A stretch of DNA of 42,591 bases, from assembly GCA_964600625.1 (NCBI GenBank), contig CAZRJV010000002.1, forward strand, positions 1 through 42,591, read 5' to 3'. A program made the translations under genes and the position numbers. Source of the stretch: an uncultured Acholeplasmataceae bacterium. Lineage in GTDB: Bacteria; Bacillota_I; Bacilli_A; Acholeplasmatales; Acholeplasmataceae. The notes below the pieces were generated by a model. It did not search any database and had not been told where the DNA came from. It was given only the letters and a program-made list of their open reading frames with translations. This document shows positions 16,561 to 38,627 of the stretch, piece by piece. Every line of letters starts with the position of its first letter. The first letter of the stretch is position 1.

Positions 16561-16608
16561 ACATAAAAATGTTATTATTATATGTAATGACTAATGGAGG
16601 TGCTAACA

Positions 16609-19300: not shown

Positions 19301-20538
19301 GTGTAATTACACGATATAATCAAGCTAAACAATTATATGAATCACTTGGCGTTGATGTGGAAAAAGCAATTGAAACATTAAAAAACACTCCAATTTCTAT
19401 TCAATGTTGGCAAGGTGATGATGTTCAAGGATTTTATAATAAACAAGCGTTATCTGGAGGTATATCCGTTACTGGAAATTATCCTTTTAAAGCGAACAAT
19501 ATTAAAGAATTAAGACAAGATATTGAAGAGGTATTGAAACTAGTTCCATTTGATCATCGATTAAGTTTACACGCTATCTATTTAGATACTAAAGATAAAA
19601 TTGGATTGGATGAAATTGAACCTATTCATTTTGAATCTTGGGTTCAATGGGCTAAAAACAACAATGTTAAACTTGATTTTAATCCAACTTTGTTTTCACA
19701 CCCGTTATCATCAACTGGTTTTACATTATCTTCTAATGATGAGGATATTAGAAACTTTTGGATACGTCATGTAAAGCAATCTAGAAAAATATCTAATTAT
19801 TTTGGGGAAGAACTTAACTCAAGAAGTGTATGTAATTTATGGATTCCTGATGGCTATAAAGATACACCATATTCAAGATTGAACCCTAGAAAATTGTTAA
19901 AAGAGTCCCTTGATCAAATTTATAAGACTAAATACCCAAATGTGATTGACACTTTAGAATCAAAATTATTTGGTATTGGCGCTGAATCTTATACCACTGG
20001 ATCACATGAATTCTATTTAACTTACGCAGTGAAAAACAATTTATCTGTTTGTTTAGATGCCGGTCATTTTCATCCTACTGAACAAGTAAGTGATAAACTT
20101 TCATCAATTTCGCTTTTTACAGACCATCTAATGTTACATGTATCAAGACCAGTTAGATGGGATTCTGATCATGTCGTAAGTTTTAATGATGATTTACAAA
20201 ATATTACTGATGCATTAGTAAGAGATGAACTACTGAATAAAACCTCAATTGGTTTGGATTACTTTGATGCATCAATAAATAGAATAGCTGCTTGGGTAAT
20301 TGGAATACGAAACACTCAAAAAGCACTTCTTAAATCGTTATTAGAACCTAAAGAATTATTACATCAGATTGAACAAGAACAGAATTATACAAAAAGACTA
20401 GTTTATATAGAAGAATTAAAATCTTTACCATTTGGATTAATCTATGATTATATTTGTTTAAAAAATAATAAACCTGTTGGATTAGATTATCTAAAAGAGA
20501 TAGAAGCTTATGAAGTTTCATTGAAAGGAAAACGCTAA
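19297..20538 (+). CDS. rhaA: L-rhamnose isomerase
   Basis: There are long stretches of identity to E. coli RhaA as I recall it: CWQGDDV.GF, TGNYPGKA-like, LHAIYL, ESKLFGIGAESYT.GS.EFY, CLDAGHFHPTE, LHVSRPVRWDSDHVV and DFFDASINRIAAWVIG.RN..KALL..LLEP. Confidence 0.95.
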   Translation: MSVITRYNQAKQLYESLGVDVEKAIETLKNTPISIQCWQGDDVQGFYNKQALSGGISVTGNYPFKANNIKELRQDIEEVLKLVPFDHRLSLHAIYLDTKDKIGLDEIEPIHFESWVQWAKNNNVKLDFNPTLFSHPLSSTGFTLSSNDEDIRNFWIRHVKQSRKISNYFGEELNSRSVCNLWIPDGYKDTPYSRLNPRKLLKESLDQIYKTKYPNVIDTLESKLFGIGAESYTTGSHEFYLTYAVKNNLSVCLDAGHFHPTEQVSDKLSSISLFTDHLMLHVSRPVRWDSDHVVSFNDDLQNITDALVRDELLNKTSIGLDYFDASINRIAAWVIGIRNTQKALLKSLLEPKELLHQIEQEQNYTKRLVYIEELKSLPFGLIYDYICLKNNKPVGLDYLKEIEAYEVSLKGKR

Positions 20539-20539
20539 T

Positions 20540-21352
20540 ATGAAAAATATTTTAGAATCTAAATTCATTCAGGAATTTTCTAATGTTATTGATAGAATGT
20601 ATCTTAACGGCTGGGATGAACGAAATGCAGGAAACGTATCCTATCTTTTGTTAGAAGAAGAACTATCACCTTATCTTGATTTATCTAAAAAAGGACGAGT
20701 TCATCAATTACAAATAGATGCTCATAAATTAGCAGGAAAATACGTATTAGTTACTGGGTCAGGGAAATACTTTAGAAACGTTAAAGGTAATCCCGAAGCC
20801 AATAGTTGTATCATAAGAATTTCTCAATGTGGAACACACGCAGAAATCTTATGGGGTTTAAAAGAAGGTGAAGTTCCAACCTCAGAATTAAGTACACATT
20901 TATCATCTCATATAGCTAGGTTAGAGGTAGATGATACCCATAGAGTAATTATTCATACCCATGCTACTTATTTAAACATTATGAGTGCTGTTGTTGATTT
21001 AGACGAAAAAAATTTTACTAAAGCTTTATGGGGGTTAAATACAGAAAATATTATTATCTTTCCTGAAGGAATAGGGATAATTCCATGGGAAATACCAGGG
21101 AACGGATTAATCGGAAAAAATACAGCAAACAAAATTAAAACCTATAAAATCGTTTTGTGGCCATTACATGGTGTTGTAGCTTCAGGTGAAACTGTTGACA
21201 GTGCTTTTGGCTTGATTGAAACAGTAGAAAAAGCAGCAATGATGTACATGGTTATTAATAATTATTCAAATTATAAAACTATAAATGATGAAGAGTTAAT
21301 TAAACTTGCATCAGCATTTAAAGTTACACCTAATAAGGAGTTTATTAAATGA
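20540..21352 (+). CDS. rhaD: Rhamnulose-1-phosphate aldolase (class II aldolase)
   Basis: GWDERNAGNVS, VTGSGKYFRNV, ILWGL...VPTSEL..H, HTHAT, FPEGIGI.PW..PG and LWP.HGV...G....AFGLI.T.EK closely parallel E. coli RhaD. Confidence 0.95.
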   Translation: MKNILESKFIQEFSNVIDRMYLNGWDERNAGNVSYLLLEEELSPYLDLSKKGRVHQLQIDAHKLAGKYVLVTGSGKYFRNVKGNPEANSCIIRISQCGTHAEILWGLKEGEVPTSELSTHLSSHIARLEVDDTHRVIIHTHATYLNIMSAVVDLDEKNFTKALWGLNTENIIIFPEGIGIIPWEIPGNGLIGKNTANKIKTYKIVLWPLHGVVASGETVDSAFGLIETVEKAAMMYMVINNYSNYKTINDEELIKLASAFKVTPNKEFIK

Positions 21353-22341
21353 AAAAAATGAGCTTAATTGTTTTAACATTATTATCGGTAATATTTATAA
21401 GTGGTTGTGAAAAGCCTGAAAACAGTGACAATAATGATGATAACGATGACAAAAATGTTGAACTACTTGAAGATCCAATATTTGCGACAGGATTTAATCT
21501 TTTAGGAATTAGTCCGGTTGAGGATGGTAGAACAATTAAAAGACACTTAGACTATGGTGGTACAGCACTGCCTAGTTCAAGACCAATATGGCATATGGCA
21601 CAATGGTGGACGCCTTATGATGTTGTTGATGCAACCTATAAGGAAGTTAATAATGTTCATATATATGAAACCCCTTCAAGAATATTGAAAATGAATCCTG
21701 AAGATAATGGATATCTATATATGGAATTGTTTGGATTAAAAGAATACGAAAATGGACCAAGAAAATTAAATGAACCATGGACACATGCTTTGATAGAACA
21801 AGATTTCAATGAATCTGTTGGAATGTCTGAATTATCAAGTTTGATGTTGAAAATGGAAGTTACCATACATCATGTCAATAATTTAATGGGAAGCGATTAT
21901 GATCCAGGAAAACATGCTGCTCAGTTATTATGGTACTTAACTTTGAGAAATGTAGTTCCTGAAGGTTCAGAAGATGTTGGACAAAATGGGGATTTCCTTT
22001 GGTTTGGTATTCCGATTTATGACAATAGAAATGATTTTATTCCTCACTCAGCTCATATAGATCAAGGAGCCGCTGGTACTACAGGAAAATTAATTTACTC
22101 AATGTCCTCGAAAAATTATTTTGATGAAAAAATCCAAATGAACAAAACGTATAACATTGAAATCGATGTATTGCCTTATTTAAAAGAAGCATTTATATAT
22201 GCAGTCAATAACAACGCACTAGTTGGCGCACGTTTTGAAAATATGCAAATAGGATATATGAACTTTGGATGGGAAGTGCCTGGGACGTTTGATGTAGCTT
22301 CCACAATTAGGGGTATTTCAATTAAAGCTATTAGAAAGTAG
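21349..22341 (+). CDS. Lipoprotein of unassigned family (paralogue 1 of 3)
   Basis: Signal peptide with lipobox (VIFISGC) and an Asp/Asn-rich linker. The start overlaps the rhaD stop (ATGA). It shares blocks with 22349-23242 and 32366-33340 (see findings). Confidence 0.85.
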   Translation: MKKMSLIVLTLLSVIFISGCEKPENSDNNDDNDDKNVELLEDPIFATGFNLLGISPVEDGRTIKRHLDYGGTALPSSRPIWHMAQWWTPYDVVDATYKEVNNVHIYETPSRILKMNPEDNGYLYMELFGLKEYENGPRKLNEPWTHALIEQDFNESVGMSELSSLMLKMEVTIHHVNNLMGSDYDPGKHAAQLLWYLTLRNVVPEGSEDVGQNGDFLWFGIPIYDNRNDFIPHSAHIDQGAAGTTGKLIYSMSSKNYFDEKIQMNKTYNIEIDVLPYLKEAFIYAVNNNALVGARFENMQIGYMNFGWEVPGTFDVASTIRGISIKAIRK

Positions 22342-22348
22342 GTAATTA

Positions 22349-23242
22349 ATGAAAATAGTAAATTTGTTAACAGATTCATCCTTTGAAACAGGGTTTCATT
22401 TACTTGGTATCAATCCAACTATCAACCACAGAAAAGTTTATAAGCATTTGGATTATGATGGTAAAGCAAAATATTCAAAAATACCTATTTGGCAAATGGC
22501 TCAATGGTGGACGCCTTATAATGTTTTAGATGCTAAATTTAAAATAATAAATAATAACTATATTTATGAAACACCTTCTAGAAGAATAGAAGTAAATCCT
22601 TATAACCAAGGCTACTTGAGAATGAATTTATCTGCTTCAAAAGAATACTTAAATGGGGCACGTTTAGATTCAAGTAAACCATGGAGTCACTTATTGATAG
22701 AACAAGATTTTCAAAAACACGTAGCACTAGATGGTCTTGAGGCATTAAGGGTTCAATTGACTTTTAACATTGAGAAAGTTATTAATCAAAGCCCCGAAAC
22801 TTATAATCCTAATTATCATGCTGCTCAATTAGTTTGGTATTTTGTTATTCATGATGCAAGTTACGAGGGATCTAAGTATGGTAATTTTAATGAATACTTC
22901 TGGTTTGGTATTCCTATTTACGATAACCGTCATGACTTTATTGATGAACATCATCATGTTGATCAAGGTGGTATTGGTACAACTGGTAGATTAATTTACT
23001 CAATGAGCAATAAAAATTATTTAAATGAAAAGATAATATTTGGAAAAACATACAACATTGATATTAATGTTCTTCCATTTATCTTAAAAGCAAAAACTTA
23101 TGCGATTCAGAATGGTTACTTAAAACATAATGAAGAATCAAAATATGAAATAGGATACATGAATTTTGGATGGGAAATCCCAGGTATGTTTGATGTTGAA
23201 TCATATATTCAAAATATGAATGTGATTGCGACAATAATATAA
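22349..23242 (+). CDS. Cytoplasmic protein of the same unassigned family (paralogue 2 of 3, no signal peptide)
   Basis: It begins directly at the conserved core (MKIVNLLTDSSFETGFHLLGI...). By eye it is roughly half identical to paralogue 1. Confidence 0.85.
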   Translation: MKIVNLLTDSSFETGFHLLGINPTINHRKVYKHLDYDGKAKYSKIPIWQMAQWWTPYNVLDAKFKIINNNYIYETPSRRIEVNPYNQGYLRMNLSASKEYLNGARLDSSKPWSHLLIEQDFQKHVALDGLEALRVQLTFNIEKVINQSPETYNPNYHAAQLVWYFVIHDASYEGSKYGNFNEYFWFGIPIYDNRHDFIDEHHHVDQGGIGTTGRLIYSMSNKNYLNEKIIFGKTYNIDINVLPFILKAKTYAIQNGYLKHNEESKYEIGYMNFGWEIPGMFDVESYIQNMNVIATII

Positions 23243-23284
23243 ATAAAGAAAAAACAACAATAGTTGAAAAATACGGAGGAAAGT

Positions 23285-25696
23285 ATGAAAAAATTAGTTA
23301 CAATTTTAAGTTTAGTTCTCGTTTTTGTTGTGGGTCTTATGACGACCTCGATAAACGCGGCAGTACTACCAGAAAATCCACCAGTAATTGGCGAAGAGTC
23401 AACGGTAACGGATTTTTACTCACATTGGCAACCAGGAATGTTTGGTGCAAACAGATTAAACGATAAAGGTGTCGTAATGGCTCTAACGTCTGGATTTGGT
23501 GCTAGAGCTGGTTTTAGAACACCTTACAACGTCACAGATTTTGAAGCACAGTTTGATTTTTCTTATCTAGATCCTGGTACAGTTGCAATCACATTTTTTG
23601 GTCCACAAGGATCATATATTAGTGGAAATGGAGCAGTTTTATCGATTGAGTTCCTTAAACATACAACTGTGGCTAATAAGTATTTAGTTGCTATTCAAGT
23701 TGGATCTGGATTACATCACGTTTCTTTACCTGAATTCATTCTAGAAGAACAAGGTGATTGGGAAGATGCGGCTTGGAAAGGTTATCAATTAGTAGCAGAA
23801 AATGATATTATAACTTTTTCTATGAAAGAAATAGGTTCAGATGTCTTAGTAACTATTAATGGGCATGAATTCACGGTAGCTTCAAATGTTTTATTTGCTG
23901 AAATGGTTGATAAAACAAGCGTACACTATTTAATAGGTGCACTAAATATAGATAATTCGATTCAAACTGTAACAGCTAATTATATTCTTGATGCACAAAG
24001 AAGAACCTATTATGAAGCAGAAGGTGTGTTTGAAACCTTTAAATCTAATTTAATTGAGTTAGAAACATTATTGTTAGAAGATTTATCAGTTGTCACAAAT
24101 GTTCAAGCAGCTCAAGCTATTAACGCTAATCTTGATATTGATACATTATATGAATTTGACAAAAACTTTTTTAGAGATAGATTAGATGCTGCACAAGCAA
24201 CTTTACAAGCTGCAATTAGTGAGCTTGGTGGGGATATTATTTTAGATGAGTTAGAATCTATCATAGTTCAATTAGAAACAAGAGTAAATGCAATCGTTGA
24301 TTATACCACTGCTAACCAAGCTATCAATCAACTTACAACAGCAAAAGATAAAGAAATTTCTATAGATGATTCTGAATTTACACCTGAACAAGTAACAAGA
24401 TTTGCGGGATTGAGTGAAAGAATTGCTGATGCAGACGCATTAATTATTACCAAAGTTCATGATTTAGCTTTAGCACAAATAGTAGAATTTGAAACCAATG
24501 TTTTAGATCTTTCAACAATTGAAAAAGTTAACATCGCAATAGATTCTAAAAATGCAGTGAGAACAAATCTATTTGCATTATTAGAAGAAGAAATCAGTAC
24601 AGCCTTCACAGCAAGATATGATGCAGCTGTAACTACGTTAACGGATGCTACTAATTCTCAAAGCGGTTGGATTGTTGGGGAAAATACTTACGTTATAGAA
24701 AACAATAATACAATTCAAGCTACTTTCTTTGGTGAAGGTCTCGGTGAAAAAGGTAATGGATTATTTTATGAATTAGAAAAATTTGATGTTAGAAACTTCC
24801 AAATGACGTTAAAAGTTGAATCATTAACTAAAGAAGCAGGTGGATGGATTAGTTTTGGTATTATGGAAAAACCTGAAATTTTCTCAACAGCAGATGATTC
24901 AAGTGTACAAGACAATAAAGGTTTATTTTTCTTAATAATTCCTGAAGGAACAAATGGAGCAAGAATTGAAGTATATATGTTAAGTCTTTATTCTAACCGC
25001 TTCTTTGATGCACAACGTACTGAAATCTTACATGTTACATTAGAAAATGACTTAGTTATTGATTTCTCAACTGTTATGGAAGAAGTATCTGGTGTCATTG
25101 AAGAATATCTTTCAATTAGCATTGGCGGAGATGTAATGGATGCAGATAGAATTACCACACGTGCATTAAAGACGTCATTATCTGATAACTTAGGTCATTT
25201 ATACATTGCAGGTAGTGGAGGAACTAGTTCTTCTAAAAATACCGTTACAATTAAATTAATTAATGGTAAAGACGCTACTGCAGAAGCATTACAACAAGAC
25301 TATATTCCAGAACCATATCTAGTTACTTTAGAAGGTTCATTTGAAAAAGGTAGTTTATCAGATATGAATATTGAATTTTACAATCGAGAATTAGATTTCG
25401 TTGTAAAAGTCAATGGAACAGAATTAGCTGATACTAACTATACATATGCAAACAACGTCCTAAAAATTAAAGCAACTTATTTAGAAACTTTAGAAGTTGG
25501 TGATCACGTTGTTAGTATTGAAACAGAAGGTGGAAACATTACTGTACCATTTACAGTAGATTCAGAACCAGTTGAACCAGAAACACCATCAAATGGCATT
25601 CCATGGGTATGGATATCTGTTGTTGGAGGCTTAATTGTTTTAGGCGCTGCTGGATTTGTAGTTTATACATTTGTTATTAAGAAAAAGAAAGCATAA
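23285..25696 (+). CDS. Large multidomain surface protein with an N-terminal signal peptide and a C-terminal TM anchor (803 aa)
   Basis: GGAGGA RBS before the ATG at 23285. Signal peptide MKKLVTILSLVLVFVVGLMTTSINA. Two beta-rich modules flank a ~230-aa helical Ala/Gln/Glu-rich region. An Ig/X2-like module follows (YLVTLEGSFEKG...VNGTEL...YTYANNVLKIKATYLETLEVGDHVVSIETEGGNITVPFTV), then a Pro/Glu linker. The C-terminal helix is WVWISVVGGLIVLGAAGFVVYTFVIKKKKA. Confidence 0.8.
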   Translation: MKKLVTILSLVLVFVVGLMTTSINAAVLPENPPVIGEESTVTDFYSHWQPGMFGANRLNDKGVVMALTSGFGARAGFRTPYNVTDFEAQFDFSYLDPGTVAITFFGPQGSYISGNGAVLSIEFLKHTTVANKYLVAIQVGSGLHHVSLPEFILEEQGDWEDAAWKGYQLVAENDIITFSMKEIGSDVLVTINGHEFTVASNVLFAEMVDKTSVHYLIGALNIDNSIQTVTANYILDAQRRTYYEAEGVFETFKSNLIELETLLLEDLSVVTNVQAAQAINANLDIDTLYEFDKNFFRDRLDAAQATLQAAISELGGDIILDELESIIVQLETRVNAIVDYTTANQAINQLTTAKDKEISIDDSEFTPEQVTRFAGLSERIADADALIITKVHDLALAQIVEFETNVLDLSTIEKVNIAIDSKNAVRTNLFALLEEEISTAFTARYDAAVTTLTDATNSQSGWIVGENTYVIENNNTIQATFFGEGLGEKGNGLFYELEKFDVRNFQMTLKVESLTKEAGGWISFGIMEKPEIFSTADDSSVQDNKGLFFLIIPEGTNGARIEVYMLSLYSNRFFDAQRTEILHVTLENDLVIDFSTVMEEVSGVIEEYLSISIGGDVMDADRITTRALKTSLSDNLGHLYIAGSGGTSSSKNTVTIKLINGKDATAEALQQDYIPEPYLVTLEGSFEKGSLSDMNIEFYNRELDFVVKVNGTELADTNYTYANNVLKIKATYLETLEVGDHVVSIETEGGNITVPFTVDSEPVEPETPSNGIPWVWISVVGGLIVLGAAGFVVYTFVIKKKKA

Positions 25697-26836
25697 ATGA
25701 AAACAAAAGTAACCTTAAAGCGTTTAATAATGCTATTGGGTTTACTCTTGCCAGCTATACTATTTAGTGCATGTAATAAAAAGTTAACTTATCAATACGG
25801 AGAAAAAGAAATGATTGTTAAGGTATGGGAAGATAATATCATTTACAATGAAACTGTTGTCCTTGAAGATAATGGTACTACTATTAGTGGTCAACTACTA
25901 TTTGAACCAACGGAAATAATTTCTGTTCGTGATTATACACTAGAAAAAGAATACGATATTACGGAATATACTTTTGATAAAAATTTCATTATTCGTAGTG
26001 AAACATCAACAATGCCTTATTTAACTACAGAACAACTTGCAGGAAAAAACCTACCAGAAGAATATGCTTTTAGTACCTATCAAGCAAAAGAACCAGGAAC
26101 TGAAATTATTTTTACTGAAGGCATTGGTATAGTGATGCACCAAATAGCAGTGACATATAAACATGAAGGTAAGTGGACAGGGATAACACCTGTCCACCAA
26201 CCTTTAGCTCTTCAACAATTTAAAGAAAAGTTAGAAGCTGGTTTAGAAGTAACAATTGTTTTAAATGGTGACAGTATTTCTACTGGAGCAAATTCATCTG
26301 GAGTATTAGGTATTAAACCCTACATGGATGATTTTGGTACCATGTTTAAAACATATTTAGAAAATACATATAATAGTAAGGTAAATTTTATTAACACCAG
26401 TCTTGGTGGAACTATGTCATTGTGGGGAAAAGAAAATGTGGATCTAAATGTGAACCAATATCAACCGGATTTAGTTATTATCGGATTCGGAATGAATGAT
26501 GGTTCTTTAGGTGTTAAAGCTAATACATATCATGACAATATTGAATTTATGATTAAGTCAATAAAAGCAAGAAATTCGGATGCGAATATCATTTTAATGC
26601 ATACTATTTATGCAAATCCATTATCGCTTCAAAATCAAAATCAAGAATCATATTTAACAGAACTAGAAAACTTAAAAAAACAATATGGTGTTGCGTTACT
26701 AGATATGGGCAGTATTACTGAAACTATGTATAAAACAAAAAAAGGGGTAGATATATTGGCCAATAATATCAATCACCCAAGCGATTTTTTAGTGAGAATA
26801 TATACAGCTAGTTTAATACACACTTTGGAGGGTTAA
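25697..26836 (+). CDS. SGNH/GDSL hydrolase lipoprotein (putative carbohydrate esterase) with a ~180-aa N-terminal domain of unknown function
   Basis: Lipobox ILFSAC. SGNH block I LNGDSISTG, block III GFGMNDG and block V INHPSD. The ATG abuts the upstream TAA. Confidence 0.8.
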   Translation: MKTKVTLKRLIMLLGLLLPAILFSACNKKLTYQYGEKEMIVKVWEDNIIYNETVVLEDNGTTISGQLLFEPTEIISVRDYTLEKEYDITEYTFDKNFIIRSETSTMPYLTTEQLAGKNLPEEYAFSTYQAKEPGTEIIFTEGIGIVMHQIAVTYKHEGKWTGITPVHQPLALQQFKEKLEAGLEVTIVLNGDSISTGANSSGVLGIKPYMDDFGTMFKTYLENTYNSKVNFINTSLGGTMSLWGKENVDLNVNQYQPDLVIIGFGMNDGSLGVKANTYHDNIEFMIKSIKARNSDANIILMHTIYANPLSLQNQNQESYLTELENLKKQYGVALLDMGSITETMYKTKKGVDILANNINHPSDFLVRIYTASLIHTLEG

Positions 26837-26839
26837 AAA

Positions 26840-29104
26840 TTGTTGGAATATAATGAGAAAAATAATTGTCTAGTAGAATCTAAATATGATATCAAAGATG
26901 AAGCACATAATGCAGCACTTTTTACAACAGGTAATGGGTATTTCGGGATAAGGGGTTCGTTTGAGGAATTTGGGTCTTTAAACGTTCAAGGTGGATTTAT
27001 CAGAGGTTTATTCGATGAGATTGTTGAAATCCCATCAATCTATGTAGATAATATATACATGCGAAAATACTATATCAATGAGCTTGAAGCGAAACAATTT
27101 GAATTTCAAGATTCATGTATCAATTTTGCAGATATTTTATTTTTAAGATTTAAAATAGGTGATTCATACTTCTACCCGTGGGAAGGCCAAATACTTACCT
27201 GGGTAAGATATATTGATACCAATGATGGATCATTAATACGGGAAGTTATATGGCAAGATGAACGTGGTAACAAAACTAAGTTCAACTTCAAACGATTTGC
27301 ATCTTTCTCAAATAATCATCATTACTTTATTACTGCTAAAGTTGAAAAAATGAATCATGATTTACCTATAACCGTAGAATCAGGAATAGATACTTGGATC
27401 AAGACAAATGGGCAGAAAAAATCTAAATTGATTGGTGAGCCAAATCAAAATCAATATCTATTTAGTATGGGTGAAAAATATAACCATCAAAGTGCTGTTT
27501 CACTTCATACAGTTTACAGTTTTAAAGCAGATAAAAGTTATGAAATTAACGATGGATGTTACTATGAATCGCAAACATCAACGAAAGAAAAAATAATTGA
27601 AGTTTTCAAATATGTATCAGTACATATTACACCAGATTTAGAAGAAAATGAATCATTGGTTGAAGTTAATAACAAAGATATGATAGAAATGAAAAAAACA
27701 TCATTTGAAAAACATTATCAAGACCATTTGATGGCGTATAAAACATCATTTGACATGATTAACATTAATCTAAGTCATAAAAGTGATGATGCTTTATTAA
27801 AGTACGCTAATTATCAAACATTAATTGGCATAGATAGATATGATCAAGTACATAGTCTTAGTGCGAAGAACTTGACTGGCGAAAAGTATAATCAATTTGT
27901 TTGGTGGGATGCTGAAATATTTCAATTTCCGGTCTATCTTATGACGAATCCTAATGCAGCGAAAAATACATTAATGTATCGATATAATAGACTAGAAGAA
28001 TCTAAAAAAAATGCACAATTGGAAGGCTTAAAGGGGGCAAAATTTGCTTTCTGCTCATCAGTAAAAGGTGATGAGAAAGTTTGGGCTTACGCAAGACATC
28101 CATTTATGCAAATCCATATTAATTCAGATATTGCTTATGCAATTTTAATGTATTATCGGGTTACAAAAGATACACGCTTTATGATAGAATATGGTATCGA
28201 AATGTTAGTTGAAATCGCTAAGTACTTTATAAGTCGAGTCACATATGACAAAAAAACTGATGAATATTATCTCAACCAAGTTACTGGTACTGATGAACAT
28301 CACCCTTATGTCAATAATAATAGCTATACGAATTTTATCGTTTCTTATATTTTTGAAGAAACAATTAAATGGCTAAATAGTAATGAATCAGTAAAAACAA
28401 GACTTGTGGTGGATGAAATATTAATCAAGCAGATGAATCAGATCGCTTCAAAAATTAGAAAAGTAGTCACTGAAGATGGTTATATTCCTCAATTTGATGG
28501 TTATTTTGATTTAAAGCCAACGCTTGAAGTAACTGGCAATGGTGCTGCTAAAAATTTTCAAATGAAACAATCTGGCCTATACCATGAGTCTCAAATAATT
28601 AAACAACCTGATGTCATCATGCTTTTTACGTATATAGATATTCCAATACTAAAGTCATCTTATGAAAAAAATTGGGATTACTATGAAAAAATGTGCGAAG
28701 CATCGTCTTCATTAACTTATCCAGTTCATGCAATTGCAGCTATTGATCATCAAGAATATGATAAATTTCATGATTATTGGTACAAGAGTGTTGCAATAGA
28801 TATTATTGATAGTCATAATGAAGCAAAATTAGGATTACATGCAGCATGTATAGCTGGTGGTTGGTATAGTATTTTTAGAGGTTTATTTGGGTTTAAACCA
28901 AATATCGATTATCTAGAAGTTAACCCAAAATATTTTGAATATTGGGGAGAGGTTGAAATTCATTTTATTTATCAGGGAAGCAAAGTATATGCACAATTAT
29001 CGAAAGATTCACTAGTTCTTAAGTCAGACGGTACATTTCGGTTGAATTACAATAATAAAGTTATACATCATGACAAATTGACGATGTTAAAGTTAGATGT
29101 ATAA
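26840..29104 (+). CDS. Glycoside hydrolase family 65 protein (probable alpha-glucoside phosphorylase)
   Basis: Its size (754 aa), the N-terminal beta-sandwich start (FTTGNGYFGIRGSFEE) and the (alpha/alpha)6 core with GTDEHH (general-acid Glu region) fit GH65. An SSSLTYPVHA segment is also present. The TTG start lies 7 nt after GGAGGG. It is linked to pgmB. Confidence 0.8.
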   Translation: MLEYNEKNNCLVESKYDIKDEAHNAALFTTGNGYFGIRGSFEEFGSLNVQGGFIRGLFDEIVEIPSIYVDNIYMRKYYINELEAKQFEFQDSCINFADILFLRFKIGDSYFYPWEGQILTWVRYIDTNDGSLIREVIWQDERGNKTKFNFKRFASFSNNHHYFITAKVEKMNHDLPITVESGIDTWIKTNGQKKSKLIGEPNQNQYLFSMGEKYNHQSAVSLHTVYSFKADKSYEINDGCYYESQTSTKEKIIEVFKYVSVHITPDLEENESLVEVNNKDMIEMKKTSFEKHYQDHLMAYKTSFDMININLSHKSDDALLKYANYQTLIGIDRYDQVHSLSAKNLTGEKYNQFVWWDAEIFQFPVYLMTNPNAAKNTLMYRYNRLEESKKNAQLEGLKGAKFAFCSSVKGDEKVWAYARHPFMQIHINSDIAYAILMYYRVTKDTRFMIEYGIEMLVEIAKYFISRVTYDKKTDEYYLNQVTGTDEHHPYVNNNSYTNFIVSYIFEETIKWLNSNESVKTRLVVDEILIKQMNQIASKIRKVVTEDGYIPQFDGYFDLKPTLEVTGNGAAKNFQMKQSGLYHESQIIKQPDVIMLFTYIDIPILKSSYEKNWDYYEKMCEASSSLTYPVHAIAAIDHQEYDKFHDYWYKSVAIDIIDSHNEAKLGLHAACIAGGWYSIFRGLFGFKPNIDYLEVNPKYFEYWGEVEIHFIYQGSKVYAQLSKDSLVLKSDGTFRLNYNNKVIHHDKLTMLKLDV

Positions 29105-29119
29105 GAAAGGAAAGTTTAT

Positions 29120-30610
29120 ATGAAAAAAATCTTTATTTTAATATCTCTAATCGTATTTGGAGGTTTACTAGCTAATTGTGACAATAACAATGGTTATGAT
29201 GGCGAAATTAAAACCATTGTTGTTGATGCTGGGGGAGACATTGGTAATTTTAATACGACGCCAATTATGACTCCATCAGAAGCCAATCCATTTCCATATA
29301 ATACACTAGAAACGTTAGCTAGAGAGTGGGAAGCGTTAAATCCAGGATACAAAATTGAAATTAATAAAACATCTTCTAATGGTGATAGAGCGATTCTCGT
29401 GCCACAATTAAACAATAAAACTGCCCCAGATATCACTTATCAAAATGGAACAGTCGTTAATATGGATTTAGGGAAAGATTACTATGTTGCACTTAATGAT
29501 TATTTAGACAAACCTAATAAATACGTTGAAGGTAATGTAGCATGGAAAGATTTATATATCCCTGAAGAATTAGCACAAAACATGGCATCGGATGGTAAAT
29601 TTTATACTATCACACTTGAAAAAATTCCTGTTGGCATTATGTATAATAAAGAAATTTTAGCTGCAGCAGGTGTTGAAGAAATTCCAAAGACATACGCTGA
29701 ATTTTTGCAAGCCCTAAGTGATATCAAGACTAAAACAGATAAAGAAGCTTATACAACAACATATACATGGTATGATATCGTGTTAGAATCAACAATGTTT
29801 TCAGATATATTGACGGAGTCAGATGTGTTGACTGTCAATGGTAAAATCGATACTGAAGAATTTGTAAGAGCTTTTGATAAAGGAATATGGAATCCAACAC
29901 TTAATGCATTAGGCGCTAACGCAACATTAGAAGGTAATCGATATTATGAATATATTAAAGTTACCAAAATGAAAACAGAATATTATCCAGAAAACTGGCA
30001 AAGTTATGATGCGCATACTAATTTTGTTAATGGAAATTTAGCAATGGTTGAAGTAACAGGTAGAGAAATTAGAAAACTGTCAATTAACAAAAATGTTGAT
30101 TTCGAATGGGGCGTAATGCCTTATCCTGATTTAACAACCGAAACAACAGAGCATGCCTATGCGCCTTCAATTAGAGGTGTAGCGGGTTTAGCCACTCCAT
30201 GGTTTATTACAAATTCTGCAGTTCAAAAAGGTACAGTAGAAGGTGCTGTTGACTTTTTAATGTTCTTGACTGCGCCTGAGAATAATAATCGTTTAATTGG
30301 AGATTTAAAAGGTGGTATTCCTTTAAATCCAGATGCATCAACTGAAATAGCACCATATCTACAAGATTTATTAGATATTTATACAGAAGACAAAGAAGAT
30401 GTTGCTACTAATAATCGTGTATATTGGGGTTCGGTTAACTCATGGGCAATGTTAGGTTATGCATACAACACTGCTTTTATAAAGAGTTTACAAGATATAG
30501 ATAATGGTGTTAAAACACCTGAAGAGGTAGCTAAATCATTGGCTCAAACTATTAAGAATACGGTTCAAGCTTTAAAAATAGAAAATAATTACGATGAAAC
30601 GAAGTGGTAA
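29120..30610 (+). CDS. ABC transporter extracellular solute-binding lipoprotein (CUT1, family 1)
   Basis: Lipobox GGLLANC, 496 aa, sitting directly upstream of MalF/MalG-type permeases. Confidence 0.8.
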   Translation: MKKIFILISLIVFGGLLANCDNNNGYDGEIKTIVVDAGGDIGNFNTTPIMTPSEANPFPYNTLETLAREWEALNPGYKIEINKTSSNGDRAILVPQLNNKTAPDITYQNGTVVNMDLGKDYYVALNDYLDKPNKYVEGNVAWKDLYIPEELAQNMASDGKFYTITLEKIPVGIMYNKEILAAAGVEEIPKTYAEFLQALSDIKTKTDKEAYTTTYTWYDIVLESTMFSDILTESDVLTVNGKIDTEEFVRAFDKGIWNPTLNALGANATLEGNRYYEYIKVTKMKTEYYPENWQSYDAHTNFVNGNLAMVEVTGREIRKLSINKNVDFEWGVMPYPDLTTETTEHAYAPSIRGVAGLATPWFITNSAVQKGTVEGAVDFLMFLTAPENNNRLIGDLKGGIPLNPDASTEIAPYLQDLLDIYTEDKEDVATNNRVYWGSVNSWAMLGYAYNTAFIKSLQDIDNGVKTPEEVAKSLAQTIKNTVQALKIENNYDETKW

Positions 30611-30613
30611 TAA

Positions 30614-31507
30614 ATGAGAAAAAACCAGCATAAAACTAAATATCAGTATCAGGCCTTTTTGTGGCTGTTACCTTCTTTTTCGTTGTTGCTGGTCTTCTCT
30701 TATTATCCTCCAATAAGAACCTTGATTTTCTCGTTTACAAACTCCAATGGTGCTGGTGTAGGTAAATTTATCTTTTTGGATAATTATATTGAATTATTTA
30801 CTTCACAAACTTTCTATAGAAGTGTATTCAATGTTGTTATATTTATTATTGTAGGTATGATTGTTGGTAATTTTGCGACTATTTTGTTGGCAGAATTATT
30901 ATTTAATTTAAAAAGTAAGATAACTAGTTCGTTGTTTAGATATCTTTTCATCATTCCTATCTTAGTGCCATCTGTAGTTATTATATTAATTTGGCAATAT
31001 ATTGTTTTTGCCGGTGGGGATTCGGGGATAGCAAATCGTGTAATTGGTTTCTTTAATATAGGAAATCAAAATTGGTATTTTGATCCTAAATTGGCCCCAA
31101 TTTCAATTATATTAACTGGGTTTCCATGGGTAGCAGGTACTTCGTTTTTGATTTATTTAGCTGGGTTACAAAGTATTCCTCACTCTGTTATTGAAGCATC
31201 TAAATTGGATGGAGCAAATTTATTTCAGAGAATACTTAAAATTGATTTACCTTTATTAAAAGGTCAAATTAAATACTTCGTTGTTATGGGGTTGATTGGT
31301 GGATTACAAAACATTAATATGCAGGTCTTAGTTACTGGAAGTGGACCAGGAACAACAAATGCGACAAATGTGCCTGCGTTTATGTTATATGAAGAAGCTT
31401 TCACTTACGATCGATATGGATACGCATCTGCAATTGGTATGGTAATTTTCTTCATCACGTTAATAATTACAATTTTTAATATGAAAAAATTAAAGGGGAA
31501 TGATTAA
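30614..31507 (+). CDS. Carbohydrate ABC transporter permease (MalF-like)
   Basis: Six TM helices and the EAA-type loop IEASKLDGANLFQRILKIDLPLLK. Confidence 0.85.
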   Translation: MRKNQHKTKYQYQAFLWLLPSFSLLLVFSYYPPIRTLIFSFTNSNGAGVGKFIFLDNYIELFTSQTFYRSVFNVVIFIIVGMIVGNFATILLAELLFNLKSKITSSLFRYLFIIPILVPSVVIILIWQYIVFAGGDSGIANRVIGFFNIGNQNWYFDPKLAPISIILTGFPWVAGTSFLIYLAGLQSIPHSVIEASKLDGANLFQRILKIDLPLLKGQIKYFVVMGLIGGLQNINMQVLVTGSGPGTTNATNVPAFMLYEEAFTYDRYGYASAIGMVIFFITLIITIFNMKKLKGND

Positions 31508-31508
31508 T

Positions 31509-32354
31509 ATGGAGTTTGTTAAATTCATGCGTAAGTATTATGTACAAATCATACTTACTTTAATTATATTGATTCTGTTATTTTTATCTTTTTATCCACT
31601 GTATATGCTACTTATCAAGAGTTTTAAAACTATCTCTGATGATCAAACTAACCCATTTGGATTACCGAAAATTTGGAGCTTTGAAAATTATGAATATGCA
31701 TGGATAGTAATTAAGCCATATTTATTTAATTCATTGTATATAACTATTATTGAAACCATCGGGATTGTTTTCATTGGTTCATTAACAGCTTTTGCTTTCG
31801 TAAGATTCGAGTTTCCATATAAGAATATTATTTTTTACTTAATTATTTCATTATTAATGATTCCTGGAATTGTAACAATTACCAGTCAATATGAATTGGT
31901 TAATAGATTGGGCTTGGTAAATAATCATTGGGGAGTTATTTTGCCTGCTATTTCAGGATCAATTCCATTTGCAACATTTCTTTTGAAAACATCATTCTCA
32001 GGCGTATCAACAGAATTACTGGATGCCGCAACAATAGATGGTGCCTCAGATTTTCAAGTTTATAGACATGTAATGATACCTATTTCGAAACCAATATTAT
32101 GGACACTGGTAATTATTTCTTTTATTGGCGGATGGAATGATTATTTATGGCCATCGTTGGTATTGTTACAAGAAAATTTGCATACATTACCAATTGCATT
32201 AGTTAATTTCACATCTTCATATTATGGAATGACTGGTGGTTATGGTGCACCATTTGCAGCTTATGTGATTTCTAGTTTGCCACTGTTAATTATATTCTTA
32301 TTAGCATCCAAACAATTTATAACCGGTTTAACCAGTGGAAGTATCAAAATGTAA
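31509..32354 (+). CDS. Carbohydrate ABC transporter permease (MalG-like)
   Basis: EAA loop LDAATIDGASDFQVYRHVMIPISKP. The ATG at 31509 lies just after the upstream stop. Confidence 0.85.
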   Translation: MEFVKFMRKYYVQIILTLIILILLFLSFYPLYMLLIKSFKTISDDQTNPFGLPKIWSFENYEYAWIVIKPYLFNSLYITIIETIGIVFIGSLTAFAFVRFEFPYKNIIFYLIISLLMIPGIVTITSQYELVNRLGLVNNHWGVILPAISGSIPFATFLLKTSFSGVSTELLDAATIDGASDFQVYRHVMIPISKPILWTLVIISFIGGWNDYLWPSLVLLQENLHTLPIALVNFTSSYYGMTGGYGAPFAAYVISSLPLLIIFLLASKQFITGLTSGSIKM

Positions 32355-32365
32355 AGGAGTTTACT

Positions 32366-33340
32366 ATGAAAAAAACAATGACATTAATCTTAATTTTGAT
32401 AGGATCAATCTTATTATTCGCCTGTAAAAATGAACCTATAGATGTTGAAGATAAAGAAATTGAATTGATTCAAGATAATAAATTTGAATATGGTTTTTTG
32501 ATTTCTCCAGCAGATAATGAGCCACAACCAGAAAATAGATATCCGATTGATTATAATTTAACTTATGGAGATGCTGAAGGGCAAATTGCTTGGTTATTAG
32601 GTCAAGCTGGTAATAGATTTGGACTAGCAGATGAATACGCACTAGGTGGTAAGGAAGTTGAATATATCAACAATAATTATATTATAGAAGATGTTTCAAA
32701 AAAACTAATTATCAATCCTACAAATAGTGAAATAACATTTATATTGAATGCGAGTGAAGAATATTTGCATCCTAGACAACCCAAAGAAGCGTGGCCACAT
32801 TTATTATTACAACAGGGTTTGAAAGAAAATGTATCAATTAATGAACTTCATGATCTTGTTTTAAGTTTGAATATAAATTTGAACAGTTTAGAACGTTCTA
32901 TGACTGATGAAGAATATGATAGTAATCTTCATACTGCCCAATTTTTAATGTATATCGTAGTTAGAAGTAATGCAGCTGCAGATGCAGGAGAATTTATGTG
33001 GTTTGGAATTCCGTTTTTTGATGCTAGATATAATTTAATGCCAGAAAATGGAATGATTGATGCAGGAACATCAGGAAACACAGGAAAATTTATATATCAA
33101 ATGCCACAAGTTGATTTTATGCCTAACGGGTTGAAAGTGGGACAATTAAACGAGATTAACATTGATTTAATTCCTTATTTTGGTAGAGCATTGATATTAG
33201 CGCAAGAAAAAGGTGCGTTGTTAAATTCTACAATCAATGATTTATATTTAACCAACATGAATATAGGATATGAAATTCCAGGAACATATGATATTTCGAT
33301 TACTATTCAAAATTTCTCATTGAAAGCAACAAAAAAATAG
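32366..33340 (+). CDS. Lipoprotein of the same unassigned family (divergent paralogue 3 of 3)
   Basis: Lipobox ILLFAC. It shares AWPHLLLQQ, HTAQFLMY, FMWFGIPFFDARYN, DAGTSGNTGKFIYQM and NIGYEIPGTYDI with paralogues 1 and 2. Confidence 0.8.
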   Translation: MKKTMTLILILIGSILLFACKNEPIDVEDKEIELIQDNKFEYGFLISPADNEPQPENRYPIDYNLTYGDAEGQIAWLLGQAGNRFGLADEYALGGKEVEYINNNYIIEDVSKKLIINPTNSEITFILNASEEYLHPRQPKEAWPHLLLQQGLKENVSINELHDLVLSLNINLNSLERSMTDEEYDSNLHTAQFLMYIVVRSNAAADAGEFMWFGIPFFDARYNLMPENGMIDAGTSGNTGKFIYQMPQVDFMPNGLKVGQLNEINIDLIPYFGRALILAQEKGALLNSTINDLYLTNMNIGYEIPGTYDISITIQNFSLKATKK

Positions 33341-33341
33341 T

Positions 33342-33974
33342 ATGATTAAGGGTATTATATTTGATTTAGATGGTGTAATCGTTTCTACAGATGATTTGCA
33401 TTATTTAGGATGGAAAATGATAGCGAATAGAGAAAATATCCATTTTGATAAAACTATTAATCATCAGCTAAGGGGTGTTTCAAGAATGGAATCTCTAAAT
33501 ATTTTATTAAACCATAGTTCCAAAGTATATAGCCAAACTGAAAAAATGCAACTTGCGTCTATGAAAAACGATTATTATGTTTCATTATTGGGAAATTTAT
33601 CACAAAGTGACTTGTTACCAGGAGCTTTGGAGTTGATCAAGTATCTTAAAAGAAAAAACTATTTGCTAGCTATTGGGTCCTCTAGCAAAAATGCTTCTAT
33701 AATTATTGACAAATTAAATATTAGGGAATATTTTAATGTTATTGTTGATGGAAATGATATTTCAAATAGTAAACCGCATCCTGAAGTTTTTTTAACCGCA
33801 GCCAATAAATTAGGATTAACTAGTGCAGAATGTGTTGTCATTGAAGATGCAGTAACTGGAATTGATGCTGCAAAAGCAGCAAACATGATAACATATGGTA
33901 TTGGAAGTGCCAAAAACTATGAAAACACTGATTTTGGCATAGATTCATTATATGATTTGATTGATACTTTATAG
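33342..33974 (+). CDS. pgmB: Beta-phosphoglucomutase (HAD superfamily)
   Basis: IIFDLDGVIV (nucleophile DxD), QLRGVSRMESL, GSSSKNA, KPHPEVFL and IEDAVTGIDAAKAANM match beta-PGM motifs. Confidence 0.85.
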   Translation: MIKGIIFDLDGVIVSTDDLHYLGWKMIANRENIHFDKTINHQLRGVSRMESLNILLNHSSKVYSQTEKMQLASMKNDYYVSLLGNLSQSDLLPGALELIKYLKRKNYLLAIGSSSKNASIIIDKLNIREYFNVIVDGNDISNSKPHPEVFLTAANKLGLTSAECVVIEDAVTGIDAAKAANMITYGIGSAKNYENTDFGIDSLYDLIDTL

Positions 33975-33984
33975 TCTTTGTAAT

Positions 33985-34015
33985 AAAAAACCATCGGTTG
34001 AAATCGATGGTTTTT
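33985..34015. terminator. Bidirectional terminator between pgmB and the ABC permease gene
   Basis: aaaaaaccatcg-gttgaaat-cgatggttttt. Confidence 0.7.
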
Positions 34016-38205: not shown

Positions 38206-38221
38206 AAAATACAGTTAATTG

Positions 38222-38249
38222 TAGAACCTGAAAGGGTTCTCTTTTTTTT
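38222..38249 (+). terminator. Terminator of the bPH_2 gene (repeated at 38817-38844 in the second copy of the duplication)
   Basis: agaacc-tgaaag-ggttct followed by ctttttttt. Confidence 0.7.
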
Positions 38250-38315
38250 ATATTCAAAAATCACTTTTAAGTTTAGTAAAATTCGTGTAAAATTGAGTAG
38301 AATGAGGTGCAAGTC

Positions 38316-38627
38316 ATGGAATATATTGAAGGATTATTAATATTATTTGGTGGGATTGGAACTTTGTTGGTAGGAATGGCAATGCTGTCTGACAACATGA
38401 AAAAACTAGCAAATACAAAACTTGAAGCGATTTTTAATAAAACATCAGAAAAGAAACTGGTTGGGTTAACGATTGGAGCTGGTACGACAGCTATTGTACA
38501 GTCTAGTAGTTTAACTTCAGTAATGATTGTTGGGTTGGTAAATGCTGGAATGATTACGCTGTTACAAGCAACAACAATGATTATGGGAGCAAACATAGGA
38601 ACCACCATTACTGGTCAGTCAACGTGA
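38316..38627 (+). pseudogene. Truncated 5' duplicate of the Na/Pi cotransporter gene (first ~100 codons, then out-of-frame read-through to a stop)
   Basis: It is identical to the N-terminus of 38911-40545 up to ...GANIGTTITG. It then crosses the duplication junction and ends QST*. Confidence 0.8.

What the first reader, a model, noticed from the sequence alone, without database searches (positions are those of the whole stretch)
26840..29104. The GH65 enzyme is predicted to be an alpha-glucosyl-L-rhamnose-type phosphorylase rather than a maltose, trehalose or kojibiose phosphorylase
Seen in sequence:
- A GH65-like protein sits in one operon with rhaBAD and pgmB.
- No maltose or trehalose genes are nearby.

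Established knowledge:
- GH65 phosphorylases release beta-glucose-1-phosphate, which beta-PGM converts to glucose-6-phosphate.
- GH65 contains a characterised 3-O-alpha-D-glucopyranosyl-L-rhamnose phosphorylase from a Clostridium-group bacterium, to my recollection.

Inference:
- Here the acceptor or leaving sugar is L-rhamnose, which RhaA, RhaB and RhaD then consume.
- Both halves of a Glc-Rha disaccharide are therefore catabolised by this one locus.
- Retention of a Glu in GTDEHH and of a Ser-rich SSSL segment fits a phosphorylase over a hydrolase. That motif reading is from memory and is weak evidence.
Basis: partly seen in the sequence, partly recalled or inferred. Interest (0 to 1): 0.6.

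Follow-up and report, generated by a model that had tools for sequence, protein, structure and literature searches.

The report
Glucosyl-rhamnose phosphorylase in a rhamnose operon
This gene very probably encodes a second example of a rare enzyme that uses phosphate to split the sugar pair glucose-rhamnose, and its operon also holds the genes that burn both halves; this is a correct but unsurprising prediction.

Summary
An intact 754-aa GH65 gene (26840-29104) lies in one 17-kb transcription unit with rhaB, rhaA, rhaD, an ABC importer and a beta-phosphoglucomutase. No maltose or trehalose genes occur in the window.

- **Closest enzyme.** The protein is 45% identical over 96% of its length (707 bits) to Cphy1019 (ABX41399.1). 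[quoted passage not shown] The best solved GH65 structure scores 230 bits.
- **Tree.** The protein and Cphy1019 share a 100/96-supported subclade, apart from kojibiose-, maltose-, trehalose- and nigerose-type groups.
- **Locus.** The Cphy1019 locus is syntenic with this one.
- **Residues.** The catalytic acid (E486) and the phosphate site (K343, S623, S624, H667) are kept. Five of six published specificity positions match Cphy1019; the sixth is Cys where Cphy1019 has Val.
- **Rhamnose link.** rhaBAD joins this GH65 type in three different gene orders.

The host genome looks wall-less and lacks a detectable RmlC. The locus therefore more likely forages foreign glycans than recycles its own wall.

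This is a new member of a known kind, and activity is untested. The scan already noted this operon and its unassigned GH12-like proteins on this same window.

The parts
26840..29104 (+). [quoted passage not shown]
   Evidence: Pfam GH65 N and central domains. 45% identity and 707 bits to Cphy1019. Tree placement. AF2 model with pTM 0.87 and TM 0.84-0.86 to GH65 phosphorylase structures.
26827..26831 (+). Shine-Dalgarno GGAGG, 8 nt before the TTG start; overlaps the end of the GDSL gene
   Evidence: Sequence read.
28295..28297 (+). Codon of Glu486, the general acid (the Glu of GTDEHH)
   Evidence: Aligns with Glu487 of L. brevis maltose phosphorylase and with the equivalent Glu of CsKP. Invariant in the clade.
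28706..28711 (+). Codons of Ser623-Ser624, the consecutive serines that bind phosphate
   Evidence: Align with the Ser-Ser pair of CsKP and LbMP. Role taken from PMC8626586. Invariant in the clade.
27866..27868 (+). Codon of Lys343, phosphate-site lysine
28838..28840 (+). Codon of His667, phosphate-site histidine
28043..28117 (+). Loop 3 (residues 402-426), the +1 (acceptor) subsite determinant. It has the same length as in Cphy1019, is nearly invariant in the clade, and is 8-12 residues shorter than in kojibiose phosphorylases.
   Evidence: Alignments. Invariant columns.
33342..33974 (+). Beta-phosphoglucomutase (beta-Glc1P to Glc6P)
   Evidence: TIGR01990 equivalog at 239 bits, above its cut-off.
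17813..19300 (+). Rhamnulokinase-like FGGY kinase (RhaB)
   Evidence: Best NCBIfam hit is rhamnulokinase at 387 bits, below the 528-bit equivalog cut-off. FGGY N and C domains.
19291..20538 (+). L-rhamnose isomerase (RhaA); the only copy found in the genome
   Evidence: PF06134 at 619 bits. Single genome hit.
20540..21352 (+). Rhamnulose-1-phosphate aldolase (RhaD)
   Evidence: NF002963 at 332 bits against a cut-off of 170.
29120..30610 (+). Lipoprotein solute-binding protein of the ABC importer; 40% identical to the one in the Cphy1019 locus
30614..32354 (+). Two ABC permease genes (30614-31507 and 31500-32354)
   Evidence: PF00528. 49-50% identical to the Cphy locus permeases.
25697..26836 (+). 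GDSL/SGNH esterase lipoprotein; 32% identical to the esterase next to Cphy1019
21349..23242 (+). Two paralogues of an unassigned ~300-aa family: 21349-22341 (lipoprotein) and 22349-23242 (no signal peptide). Conserved in the Cphy1019 locus.
   Evidence: No Pfam or NCBIfam hit. 26-27% identical to the Cphy locus proteins. Atlas structure search gives TM 0.55 to GH12 and 0.51 to DUF3047.
32366..33340 (+). Third paralogue of the same family (lipoprotein)
   Evidence: 30% identical to the 365-aa Cphy locus protein.
23264..25696 (+). 810-aa secreted or surface protein of unknown function; weakly similar (23% identity) to the 731-aa protein of the Cphy1019 locus
16594..17853 (+). Gfo/Idh/MocA oxidoreductase, first gene of the operon
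   Evidence: Only the Rossmann-domain part resembles E. coli YcjS.
15657..16427 (-). Divergent DeoR-family regulator
33986..34015 (+). Terminator-like hairpin that closes the operon

Best explanation

Shown here: family membership, catalytic and phosphate-site residues, clade membership, synteny, and operon structure.

Inferred pathway:
1. An oligosaccharide or disaccharide carrying Glc-alpha1,3-L-Rha is released outside the cell. The likely agents are the lipoprotein esterase, the surface protein and the GH12-like lipoproteins.
2. It is imported by the operon's ABC system.
3. In the cytoplasm, phosphate held by K343, S623, S624 and H667 attacks C1 of the glucosyl residue. Glu486 protonates the leaving O3 of rhamnose. 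The products are beta-glucose-1-phosphate and free L-rhamnose.
4. Beta-phosphoglucomutase converts the first product to glucose-6-phosphate.
5. RhaA, RhaB and RhaD convert rhamnose to DHAP and L-lactaldehyde.

In this wall-less-looking host, which has no detectable dTDP-rhamnose epimerase, the substrate is probably foreign glycan rather than the cell's own wall.
For: 1. Closest characterised enzyme. The protein is 45% identical over 96% of its length (707 bits) to P0075. P0075 is ABX41399.1 / A9KM56, that is Cphy1019, the sole characterised GRP (PMC11442529 and PMC8950772). The best PDB hit, kojibiose phosphorylase 3WIQ, scores 230 bits. Maltose phosphorylase, glucosylglycerol phosphorylase, YcjT and the GH65 hydrolases score 180 bits or less.

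2. Tree. In a careful IQ-TREE of 52 rows, the GRP-like clade (41 rows) has 100/100 support on a stem of 1.11. A 27-row subclade (100/96) holds both the window protein and Cphy1019. The outgroups are the E. coli YcjT kojibiose-phosphorylase clade and MP-like, TP-like and ONP/NP-like groups (quick tree of 91 rows).

3. Specificity positions of De Beul et al. 2021 (CsKP 64, 392, 394, 402, 416, 585). Cphy1019 reads SVSWRQ, which is the motif the paper gives for its single-sequence subgroup 7. The window protein reads SCSWRQ. Loop 3 has the same length and is 20/33 identical.

4. Phosphorylase signature. K343, E486, S623, S624 and H667 are all kept.

5. Synteny with the Cphy1019 locus. Shared genes are the SBP (40% identity), two permeases (about 50%), the GDSL esterase (32%), two or three members of the unassigned family (26-30%), a large secreted protein (23%) and beta-PGM (44%).

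6. Rhamnose link. rhaBAD is co-directional with this GH65 type in three different gene orders in different lineages. Of 29 other genomes of the subclade, 27 carry RhaA elsewhere, against 79 of 200 sampled genomes of one class (Fisher p = 2e-8; relatedness not corrected).

7. No other rhamnose supply was found in the own genome: no GH78 rhamnosidase domain, no RhaT, and a single RhaA.

8. Fold. The AF2 model has pTM 0.87 and TM 0.84-0.86 to full-length GH65 phosphorylases.
Against: - No activity data exist for this protein.
- Identity to the one characterised member is only 45%, so a shifted or broader acceptor range is possible.
- One of the six fingerprint positions differs: Cys405 where Cphy1019 has Val. 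It aligns with Glu392 of CsKP, which touches the +1 sugar.
- The model is poor exactly in the active-site loops (pLDDT below 50 at 346-355, 406-419, 569-575 and 660-665), so the acceptor pocket could not be examined.
- My tree holds no experimentally characterised nigerose, oligoglucan, trehalose, maltose or T6P phosphorylase. Stand-ins recognised by published motifs represent those groups.
- RhaB scores below the equivalog cut-off.
- Whether the disaccharide or a longer sugar is the true substrate is unknown.
Confidence: 0.85

Rival explanations
1. It is a GRP-clade phosphorylase with a shifted specificity. It might prefer a longer oligosaccharide with a Glc-alpha1,3-Rha end, another 6-deoxyhexose acceptor, or another linkage position on rhamnose.
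For: Identity to Cphy1019 is 45%, with Cys instead of Val at the CsKP-392 position. The operon holds a cytoplasmic member of the unassigned family (22349-23242), which suggests that something larger than a disaccharide is imported. Outer branches of the same GH65 clade sit in quite different gene contexts.
Against: Cys is the majority residue in the 27-row subclade, and Cys and Val lineages share the same locus content. Loop 3 is nearly invariant across the subclade. rhaBAD in the operon needs free L-rhamnose, which phosphorolysis of a terminal Glc-Rha disaccharide provides.
Confidence: 0.11
2. It is a phosphorylase of a classical alpha-glucobiose (kojibiose, nigerose, maltose or trehalose) that merely sits beside rhamnose genes.
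For: Public annotations of close relatives say 'kojibiose phosphorylase' or 'trehalose/maltose hydrolase-like'. All GH65 phosphorylases yield beta-Glc1P, so beta-PGM alone does not discriminate.
Against: Identity to YcjT and to the nigerose-type stand-in is 24-25%. The protein is separated from those groups by 100/100 branches. It lacks the W-E...T kojibiose motif, the HNE maltose motif and the SAY trehalose motif. Reviews report that Cphy1019 accepts no sugar other than L-rhamnose (PMC4336185).
Confidence: 0.03
3. It is a GH65 hydrolase (alpha-glucosidase) rather than a phosphorylase.
For: GH65 contains bacterial hydrolases (PMC8626586 and PMC8537180).
Against: The Lys, His and Ser-Ser phosphate site is intact, whereas hydrolases replace it with Met, Phe and Pro-Ala. 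Scores to the hydrolases are only about 90 bits, and the aligned stretch to FjGH65A (7FE3) ends at residue 544, before the Ser-Ser pair. A beta-PGM gene closes the operon.
Confidence: 0.01

Closest known systems
[quoted passage not shown] 2012)
   Same: Full-length GH65 architecture. 45% identity. Same supported subclade. Same loop-3 length. Five of six specificity positions. Same catalytic and phosphate residues. Syntenic locus: SBP, two permeases, GDSL esterase, unassigned ~300-aa family, large secreted protein and beta-PGM.
   Different: Cys405 where Cphy1019 has Val. Here rhaB, rhaA, rhaD and a Gfo/Idh/MocA oxidoreductase are fused into the same operon under a DeoR regulator; the Cphy locus has a GntR/LacI-type regulator and no rha genes within 10 kb. 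The host is a small-genome relative of Acholeplasma/Paracholeplasma with no PBP transpeptidase found, so the 'own cell-wall recycling' role postulated for Cphy1019 does not fit.
Kojibiose phosphorylases (CsKP, PDB 3WIQ/3WIR; E. coli YcjT)
   Same: Same fold (TM 0.84-0.86). Same general acid and phosphate site. Same product, beta-Glc1P, and the same pairing with beta-PGM.
   Different: About 25% identity. Loop 3 is 8-12 residues longer in kojibiose phosphorylases and carries the W391/E392/T417 kojibiose-binding residues, which are F/C/absent here. Separate clade.
Nigerose and alpha-1,3-oligoglucan phosphorylases of L. phytofermentans (Cphy1874, Cphy3313, Cphy3314)
   Same: They also cleave an alpha-1,3-glucosidic bond with phosphate.
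   Different: The acceptor is glucose or a glucan. The stand-in sequences of that type (Anaerocolumna paralogue, motif F-A-I..Q) are 25% identical and fall in a separate 100/100 clade. No characterised sequence of this group could be obtained here.

Membership tests
GH65 (CAZy), clan GH-L | N-terminal beta-sandwich, helical linker, (alpha/alpha)6 barrel and C-terminal beta domain | tested here: met
   Pfam PF03636 and PF03632. HMMER alignment to CsKP spans residues 93-729. AF2 model has TM 0.84-0.86 over the full length to 3WIQ, 4KTR, 6W0P and 1H54.
GH65 (CAZy), clan GH-L | General acid Glu on the loop after helix alpha5 | tested here: met
   Glu486 aligns with Glu487 of LbMP. Invariant in 18 clade members.
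GH65 glycoside phosphorylases (as opposed to GH65 hydrolases) | Phosphate site of Lys, His and two consecutive Ser (PMC8626586) | tested here: met
   K343, H667, S623 and S624 are present and invariant in the clade.
GH65 glycoside phosphorylases (as opposed to GH65 hydrolases) | Phosphate-dependent cleavage that releases beta-Glc1P | not testable with these tools
   Needs an enzyme assay. A co-operonic beta-PGM is indirect support only.
[quoted passage not shown] | Monophyly with the characterised member Cphy1019, to the exclusion of other specificities | tested here: met
   Subclade of 27 rows with 100/96 support; whole clade 100/100. Caveat: several other specificities are represented only by stand-ins labelled from published motifs.
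[quoted passage not shown] | Specificity fingerprint at CsKP positions 64, 392, 394, 402, 416 and 585 = SVSWRQ (De Beul 2021, subgroup 7) | tested here: inconclusive
   The window protein reads SCSWRQ, so 5 of 6 match. Cys is the commonest residue at that site in the subclade.
[quoted passage not shown] | Strict use of L-rhamnose as acceptor, with formation or cleavage of the alpha-1,3 bond | not testable with these tools
   Needs an assay plus NMR. Genomic support: rhaBAD is in the operon, and in other gene orders elsewhere.
Kojibiose phosphorylase (EC 2.4.1.230) | Loop-3 Trp391/Glu392/Thr417 and the EEAP fingerprint | tested here: not met
   Phe404 and Cys405 here, and the Thr417 region is deleted. 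YcjT shows WESA..EETP.
Maltose phosphorylase (EC 2.4.1.8) | HNE motif in loop 3 and the KV[MF]NES fingerprint | tested here: not met
   No HNE here. The L. curvatus stand-in has it.

The most novel reading that the evidence does not exclude
The conserved locus is a complete, so far undescribed pathway for harvesting alpha-glucosylated rhamnose-containing glycans made by other organisms, for example rhamnose-glucose wall polysaccharides or exopolysaccharides of Gram-positive bacteria. It comprises the GRP-type GH65, a GDSL esterase, two to four members of an unassigned GH12-like family, a large surface protein, an ABC importer and beta-PGM, and here also rhaBAD. In this reading the unassigned proteins are a new glycoside hydrolase family that produces the Glc-alpha1,3-Rha substrate. 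The presence of the locus in a wall-less host would overturn the 'own cell-wall recycling' role postulated for Cphy1019.
Probability: 0.35. Interest if true: 0.65.

Novelty: new member of a known kind. Interest (0 to 1): 0.35.

Why it matters
EC 2.4.1.282 rests on a single characterised enzyme, has no solved structure, and has only a guessed physiological role.

- **Second lineage.** This locus gives a second, divergent member at 45% identity, in an Acholeplasma-like gut bacterium.
- **Genomic argument for the role.** In several lineages the enzyme is wired directly to rhamnose catabolism, and here rhaBAD shares its transcription unit. Both halves of the disaccharide can therefore be used.
- **Unknown partners.** The conserved partner genes of unknown function mark the upstream steps, including the source glycan, that remain to be found.
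- **Annotation.** Database names such as 'kojibiose phosphorylase' or 'hypothetical protein' for this clade should be replaced.

Tried and rejected
- **Characterised nigerose/oligoglucan phosphorylases not obtained.** I tried to fetch the L. phytofermentans paralogues for the tree. The Logan record behind L001 is not held. A sample of 401 genomes of the family did not include that species. A protein search with the Anaerocolumna paralogue returned no curated names. Those groups are therefore represented by stand-ins labelled from published motifs.
- **Plasmid search.** It gave 256 GH65 hits, all at 28% identity or less and with generic names. They served only as outgroups.
- **Original paper.** Nihira et al. 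2012 is not in the library. Its findings are cited through reviews.
- **Acceptor pocket.** I could not analyse it in the AF2 model because the active-site loops have pLDDT below 50.
- **Oxidoreductase.** I checked whether the leading Gfo/Idh/MocA gene is a YcjS-type glucoside 3-dehydrogenase. Only the Rossmann half aligns, at 24% identity, so no claim is made.
- **Outer branches.** L017 and L079 lack the esterase and the unassigned family and have other neighbours. I do not extend the functional call to them.
- **Earlier notes on other genomes.** A word search of the scan's notes found other GH65 and beta-PGM operons, none bearing on this clade.
Full report
**Observation**

The window carries an uninterrupted 754-codon ORF at 26840-29104 on the + strand. 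It starts at TTG, with GGAGG 8 nt upstream. It matches the Pfam GH65 N-terminal domain (124 bits) and central catalytic domain (259 bits).

It is the tenth gene of a co-directional block that runs from 16594 to 33974. In order, the genes are:
- a Gfo/Idh/MocA oxidoreductase;
- RhaB-like kinase, RhaA and RhaD;
- two paralogues of an unassigned ~300-aa family;
- an 810-aa secreted protein;
- a GDSL esterase lipoprotein;
- the GH65 gene;
- a solute-binding lipoprotein and two ABC permeases;
- a third paralogue of the unassigned family;
- beta-phosphoglucomutase (TIGR01990, above its cut-off).

No + strand terminator-like hairpin lies inside the block, and one follows it at 33986-34015. A divergent DeoR regulator lies upstream. 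The other window genes I scanned hold no maltose or trehalose genes. The genome (1.38 Mb, 155 contigs, 89% complete) has this one GH65 gene only.

**Nearest characterised enzyme**

A search of the 5.8-billion-protein collection found P0075 at 45% identity, 96% coverage and 707 bits. An exact look-up shows that P0075 is ABX41399.1 / UniProt A9KM56. [quoted passage not shown]

Reviews up to 2024 list it as the only characterised enzyme of EC 2.4.1.282 (PMC11442529; PMC8950772). One review reports that no sugar other than L-rhamnose served as acceptor (PMC4336185).

Every solved GH65 structure is far more distant:
- kojibiose phosphorylase 3WIQ, 230 bits;
- maltose phosphorylase 1H54, 179 bits;
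- glucosylglycerol phosphorylase 4KTP, 179 bits;
- E. coli-type YcjT 6W0P, 173 bits;
- hydrolases, about 90-105 bits.

The closest named relatives overall are from Paracholeplasma manati and Paracholeplasma (Acholeplasma) vituli at 66-67% identity. They are annotated 'hypothetical protein' or 'kojibiose phosphorylase'.

**Phylogeny**

I collected 80 loci from species-representative genomes using two clade-specific peptide patterns (231 stretches matched in all). To these I added:
- E. coli YcjT, a characterised kojibiose phosphorylase;
- a paralogue group from an Anaerocolumna genome;
- six plasmid-borne GH65 genes.

A careful IQ-TREE run on 52 rows gives the Cphy1019-like clade (41 rows) 100/100 support on a long stem of 1.11 substitutions per site. 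Inside it, a 27-row subclade with 100/96 support contains both the window protein and Cphy1019. A quick tree of 91 rows agrees.

The outgroups can be labelled from published motifs:
- YcjT and relatives carry the kojibiose WESA...EETP pattern.
- The Latilactobacillus protein, which sits next to a GH13 gene and pgmB, carries the maltose HNE motif.
- One Bacillus mycoides protein carries the trehalose SAY motif.
- The Anaerocolumna group reads F-A-I..Q, like the published oligoglucan fingerprint FAITQA.

Limitation: I could not obtain experimentally characterised nigerose, oligoglucan, trehalose, maltose or T6P phosphorylase sequences.

**Residues**

From the HMMER alignments to CsKP and LbMP and the clade alignment:
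- Glu486, the Glu of GTDEHH, is the general acid and aligns with LbMP Glu487.
- Lys343, His667 and Ser623-Ser624 form the phosphate site that PMC8626586 describes for all GH65 phosphorylases. Hydrolases replace these residues with Met, Phe and Pro-Ala.

The relevant serines are the last two of SSS.

De Beul et al. (PMC8537180) defined six specificity positions (CsKP 64, 392, 394, 402, 416, 585). They quote SVSWRQ for a subgroup that held one sequence only.
- Cphy1019 reads S-V-S-W-R-Q in my alignment, so that subgroup is evidently the glucosyl-rhamnose phosphorylase.
- The window protein reads S-C-S-W-R-Q.
- Cys is the majority residue in the subclade. Val marks the branch that holds Cphy1019.
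- Loop 3 has the same length in both proteins, is 20/33 identical, and is almost invariant across the clade (F404, S406, S407, G410, E412, V414, W415, Y417-F422, Q424, H426).
- In kojibiose phosphorylases, loop 3 is 8-12 residues longer.

**Fold**

An AlphaFold2 model built from the 18-sequence alignment has pTM 0.87 and mean pLDDT 79.5. It superposes over its full length on kojibiose, glucosylglycerol and maltose phosphorylases with TM 0.84-0.86. No structure of the glucosyl-rhamnose type exists in the PDB. The active-site loops are modelled with low confidence, so I drew no conclusions about the acceptor pocket.

**Gene context**

The Cphy1019 locus contains a GntR/LacI-type regulator, an SBP, two permeases, proteins of 365, 285 and 731 aa without Pfam hits, Cphy1019 itself, a GDSL esterase and a HAD-family protein similar to the window's beta-PGM.

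Pairwise comparisons show that these are counterparts of the window genes:

| Gene | Identity to window counterpart |
|---|---|
| SBP | 40% |
| GDSL esterase | 32% |
| Unassigned family | 26-30% |
| Large secreted protein | 23% |
| Permeases | 49-50% |
| Beta-PGM | 44% |

Across the 80 loci, many of them truncated, the unassigned family accompanies the GH65 gene in 44, the esterase in 39 and beta-PGM in 57. In the tree, these partners are concentrated in the 27-row subclade.

rhaBAD is co-directional with the GH65 gene in three different arrangements:
- upstream of the unassigned genes (window, L005, L006);
- downstream of the importer and third paralogue (L054, L062, L067, L073);
- directly after beta-PGM (L025, L036, L041, L046).

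Among 29 further genomes of the subclade with no rha gene within 10 kb, 27 encode RhaA elsewhere. In a sample of 200 genomes of one class, 79 do. Fisher's exact test gives p = 2e-8. Relatedness is not corrected, so this is supportive only.

In the window's own genome I found one RhaA, no GH78 rhamnosidase catalytic domain, no RhaT and no RhaM. Within the 89% that is assembled, the operon's only recognisable source of free rhamnose is this phosphorylase, together with whatever the unassigned proteins do.

**Physiology**

A review states that Cphy1019 was postulated to serve clostridial cell-wall recycling (PMC4336185). The window's genome shows no PBP transpeptidase. It has only one weak Mur-ligase-domain hit, which I take to be FolC-like without having checked it. 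It shows no dTDP-4-dehydrorhamnose epimerase. Its nearest relatives are Paracholeplasma species.

A wall-less organism that does not make dTDP-rhamnose has no rhamnose-containing wall of its own to recycle. With rhaBAD in the same transcription unit, the locus here is best read as foraging foreign Glc-Rha-containing glycan. The identity of that glycan is not established by any result here.

**Limits of the call**

Outer branches of the GH65 clade sit in other contexts. L017 has a Na/Pi cotransporter, the GH65 gene and beta-PGM. L079 has GH39, an MFS transporter, GH3 and a second GH65. I do not extend the specificity call to them.

**Verdict**

It remains a prediction until the enzyme is assayed. 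It is a new member of a known enzyme kind.

The more open questions lie in the conserved partner proteins. The scan has already noted them on this same window: notes e1-4161780 to -782, with a follow-up that calls the unassigned family GH12-like. My Atlas look-up gives TM 0.55 to GH12.

Noticed in passing
window 21349-23242 and 32366-33340; L001 5691-7663: Three paralogues of a ~300-aa family without a Pfam or NCBIfam hit. Two are lipoproteins and one has no signal peptide. The family is conserved next to GRP-type GH65 genes in 44 of 80 loci, including the Cphy1019 locus. The Atlas structure search gives TM 0.55 to GH12 endoglucanases and 0.51 to DUF3047. They are candidates for the enzymes that generate the phosphorylase's substrate.
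   Followed up: partly
window 23264-25696: An 810-aa secreted protein with a weak CBM_X2-like hit. It is only 23% identical to the 731-aa protein at the matching place in the Cphy1019 locus. Function unknown.
   Followed up: partly
window 38020-38914: Perfect direct repeat with 595-nt spacing: at least 300 nt at 100% identity, at 38020-38319 and 38615-38914. It lies upstream of and into the start of the Na/Pi cotransporter gene. It looks like a recent tandem duplication or an assembly artefact.
   Followed up: partly
window 38902-40545; L017 8019-9785: A Na/Pi cotransporter-PhoU fusion gene lies 5 kb downstream of the operon. In another branch of the same GH65 clade (L017), such a transporter sits directly before the GH65 and beta-PGM genes. 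This may be a phosphate supply for phosphorolysis.
   Followed up: no
window 15556-15583 and 33986-34015: Two nearly identical terminator-like hairpins (AAAACCATCGGTT...CGATGGTTTT) bracket the whole DeoR-to-pgmB block.
   Followed up: no
L079 8061-12775; L075: In an outer branch of the clade, two GH65 genes lie in tandem beside GH39, GH3 and an MFS transporter. This context differs from the Glc-Rha locus, so the specificity there is open.
   Followed up: partly
window 16594-17853: The leading Gfo/Idh/MocA oxidoreductase also occurs in L005, L006, L011 and L014. E. coli's kojibiose operon also pairs a GH65 gene with Gfo/Idh/MocA dehydrogenases, but the two align only in the Rossmann half (24% identity).
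   Followed up: partly
window 7535-9274: A 579-aa protein with five DUF285 ('Mycoplasma protein of unknown function') repeats. This fits a Mollicutes-type host.
   Followed up: no
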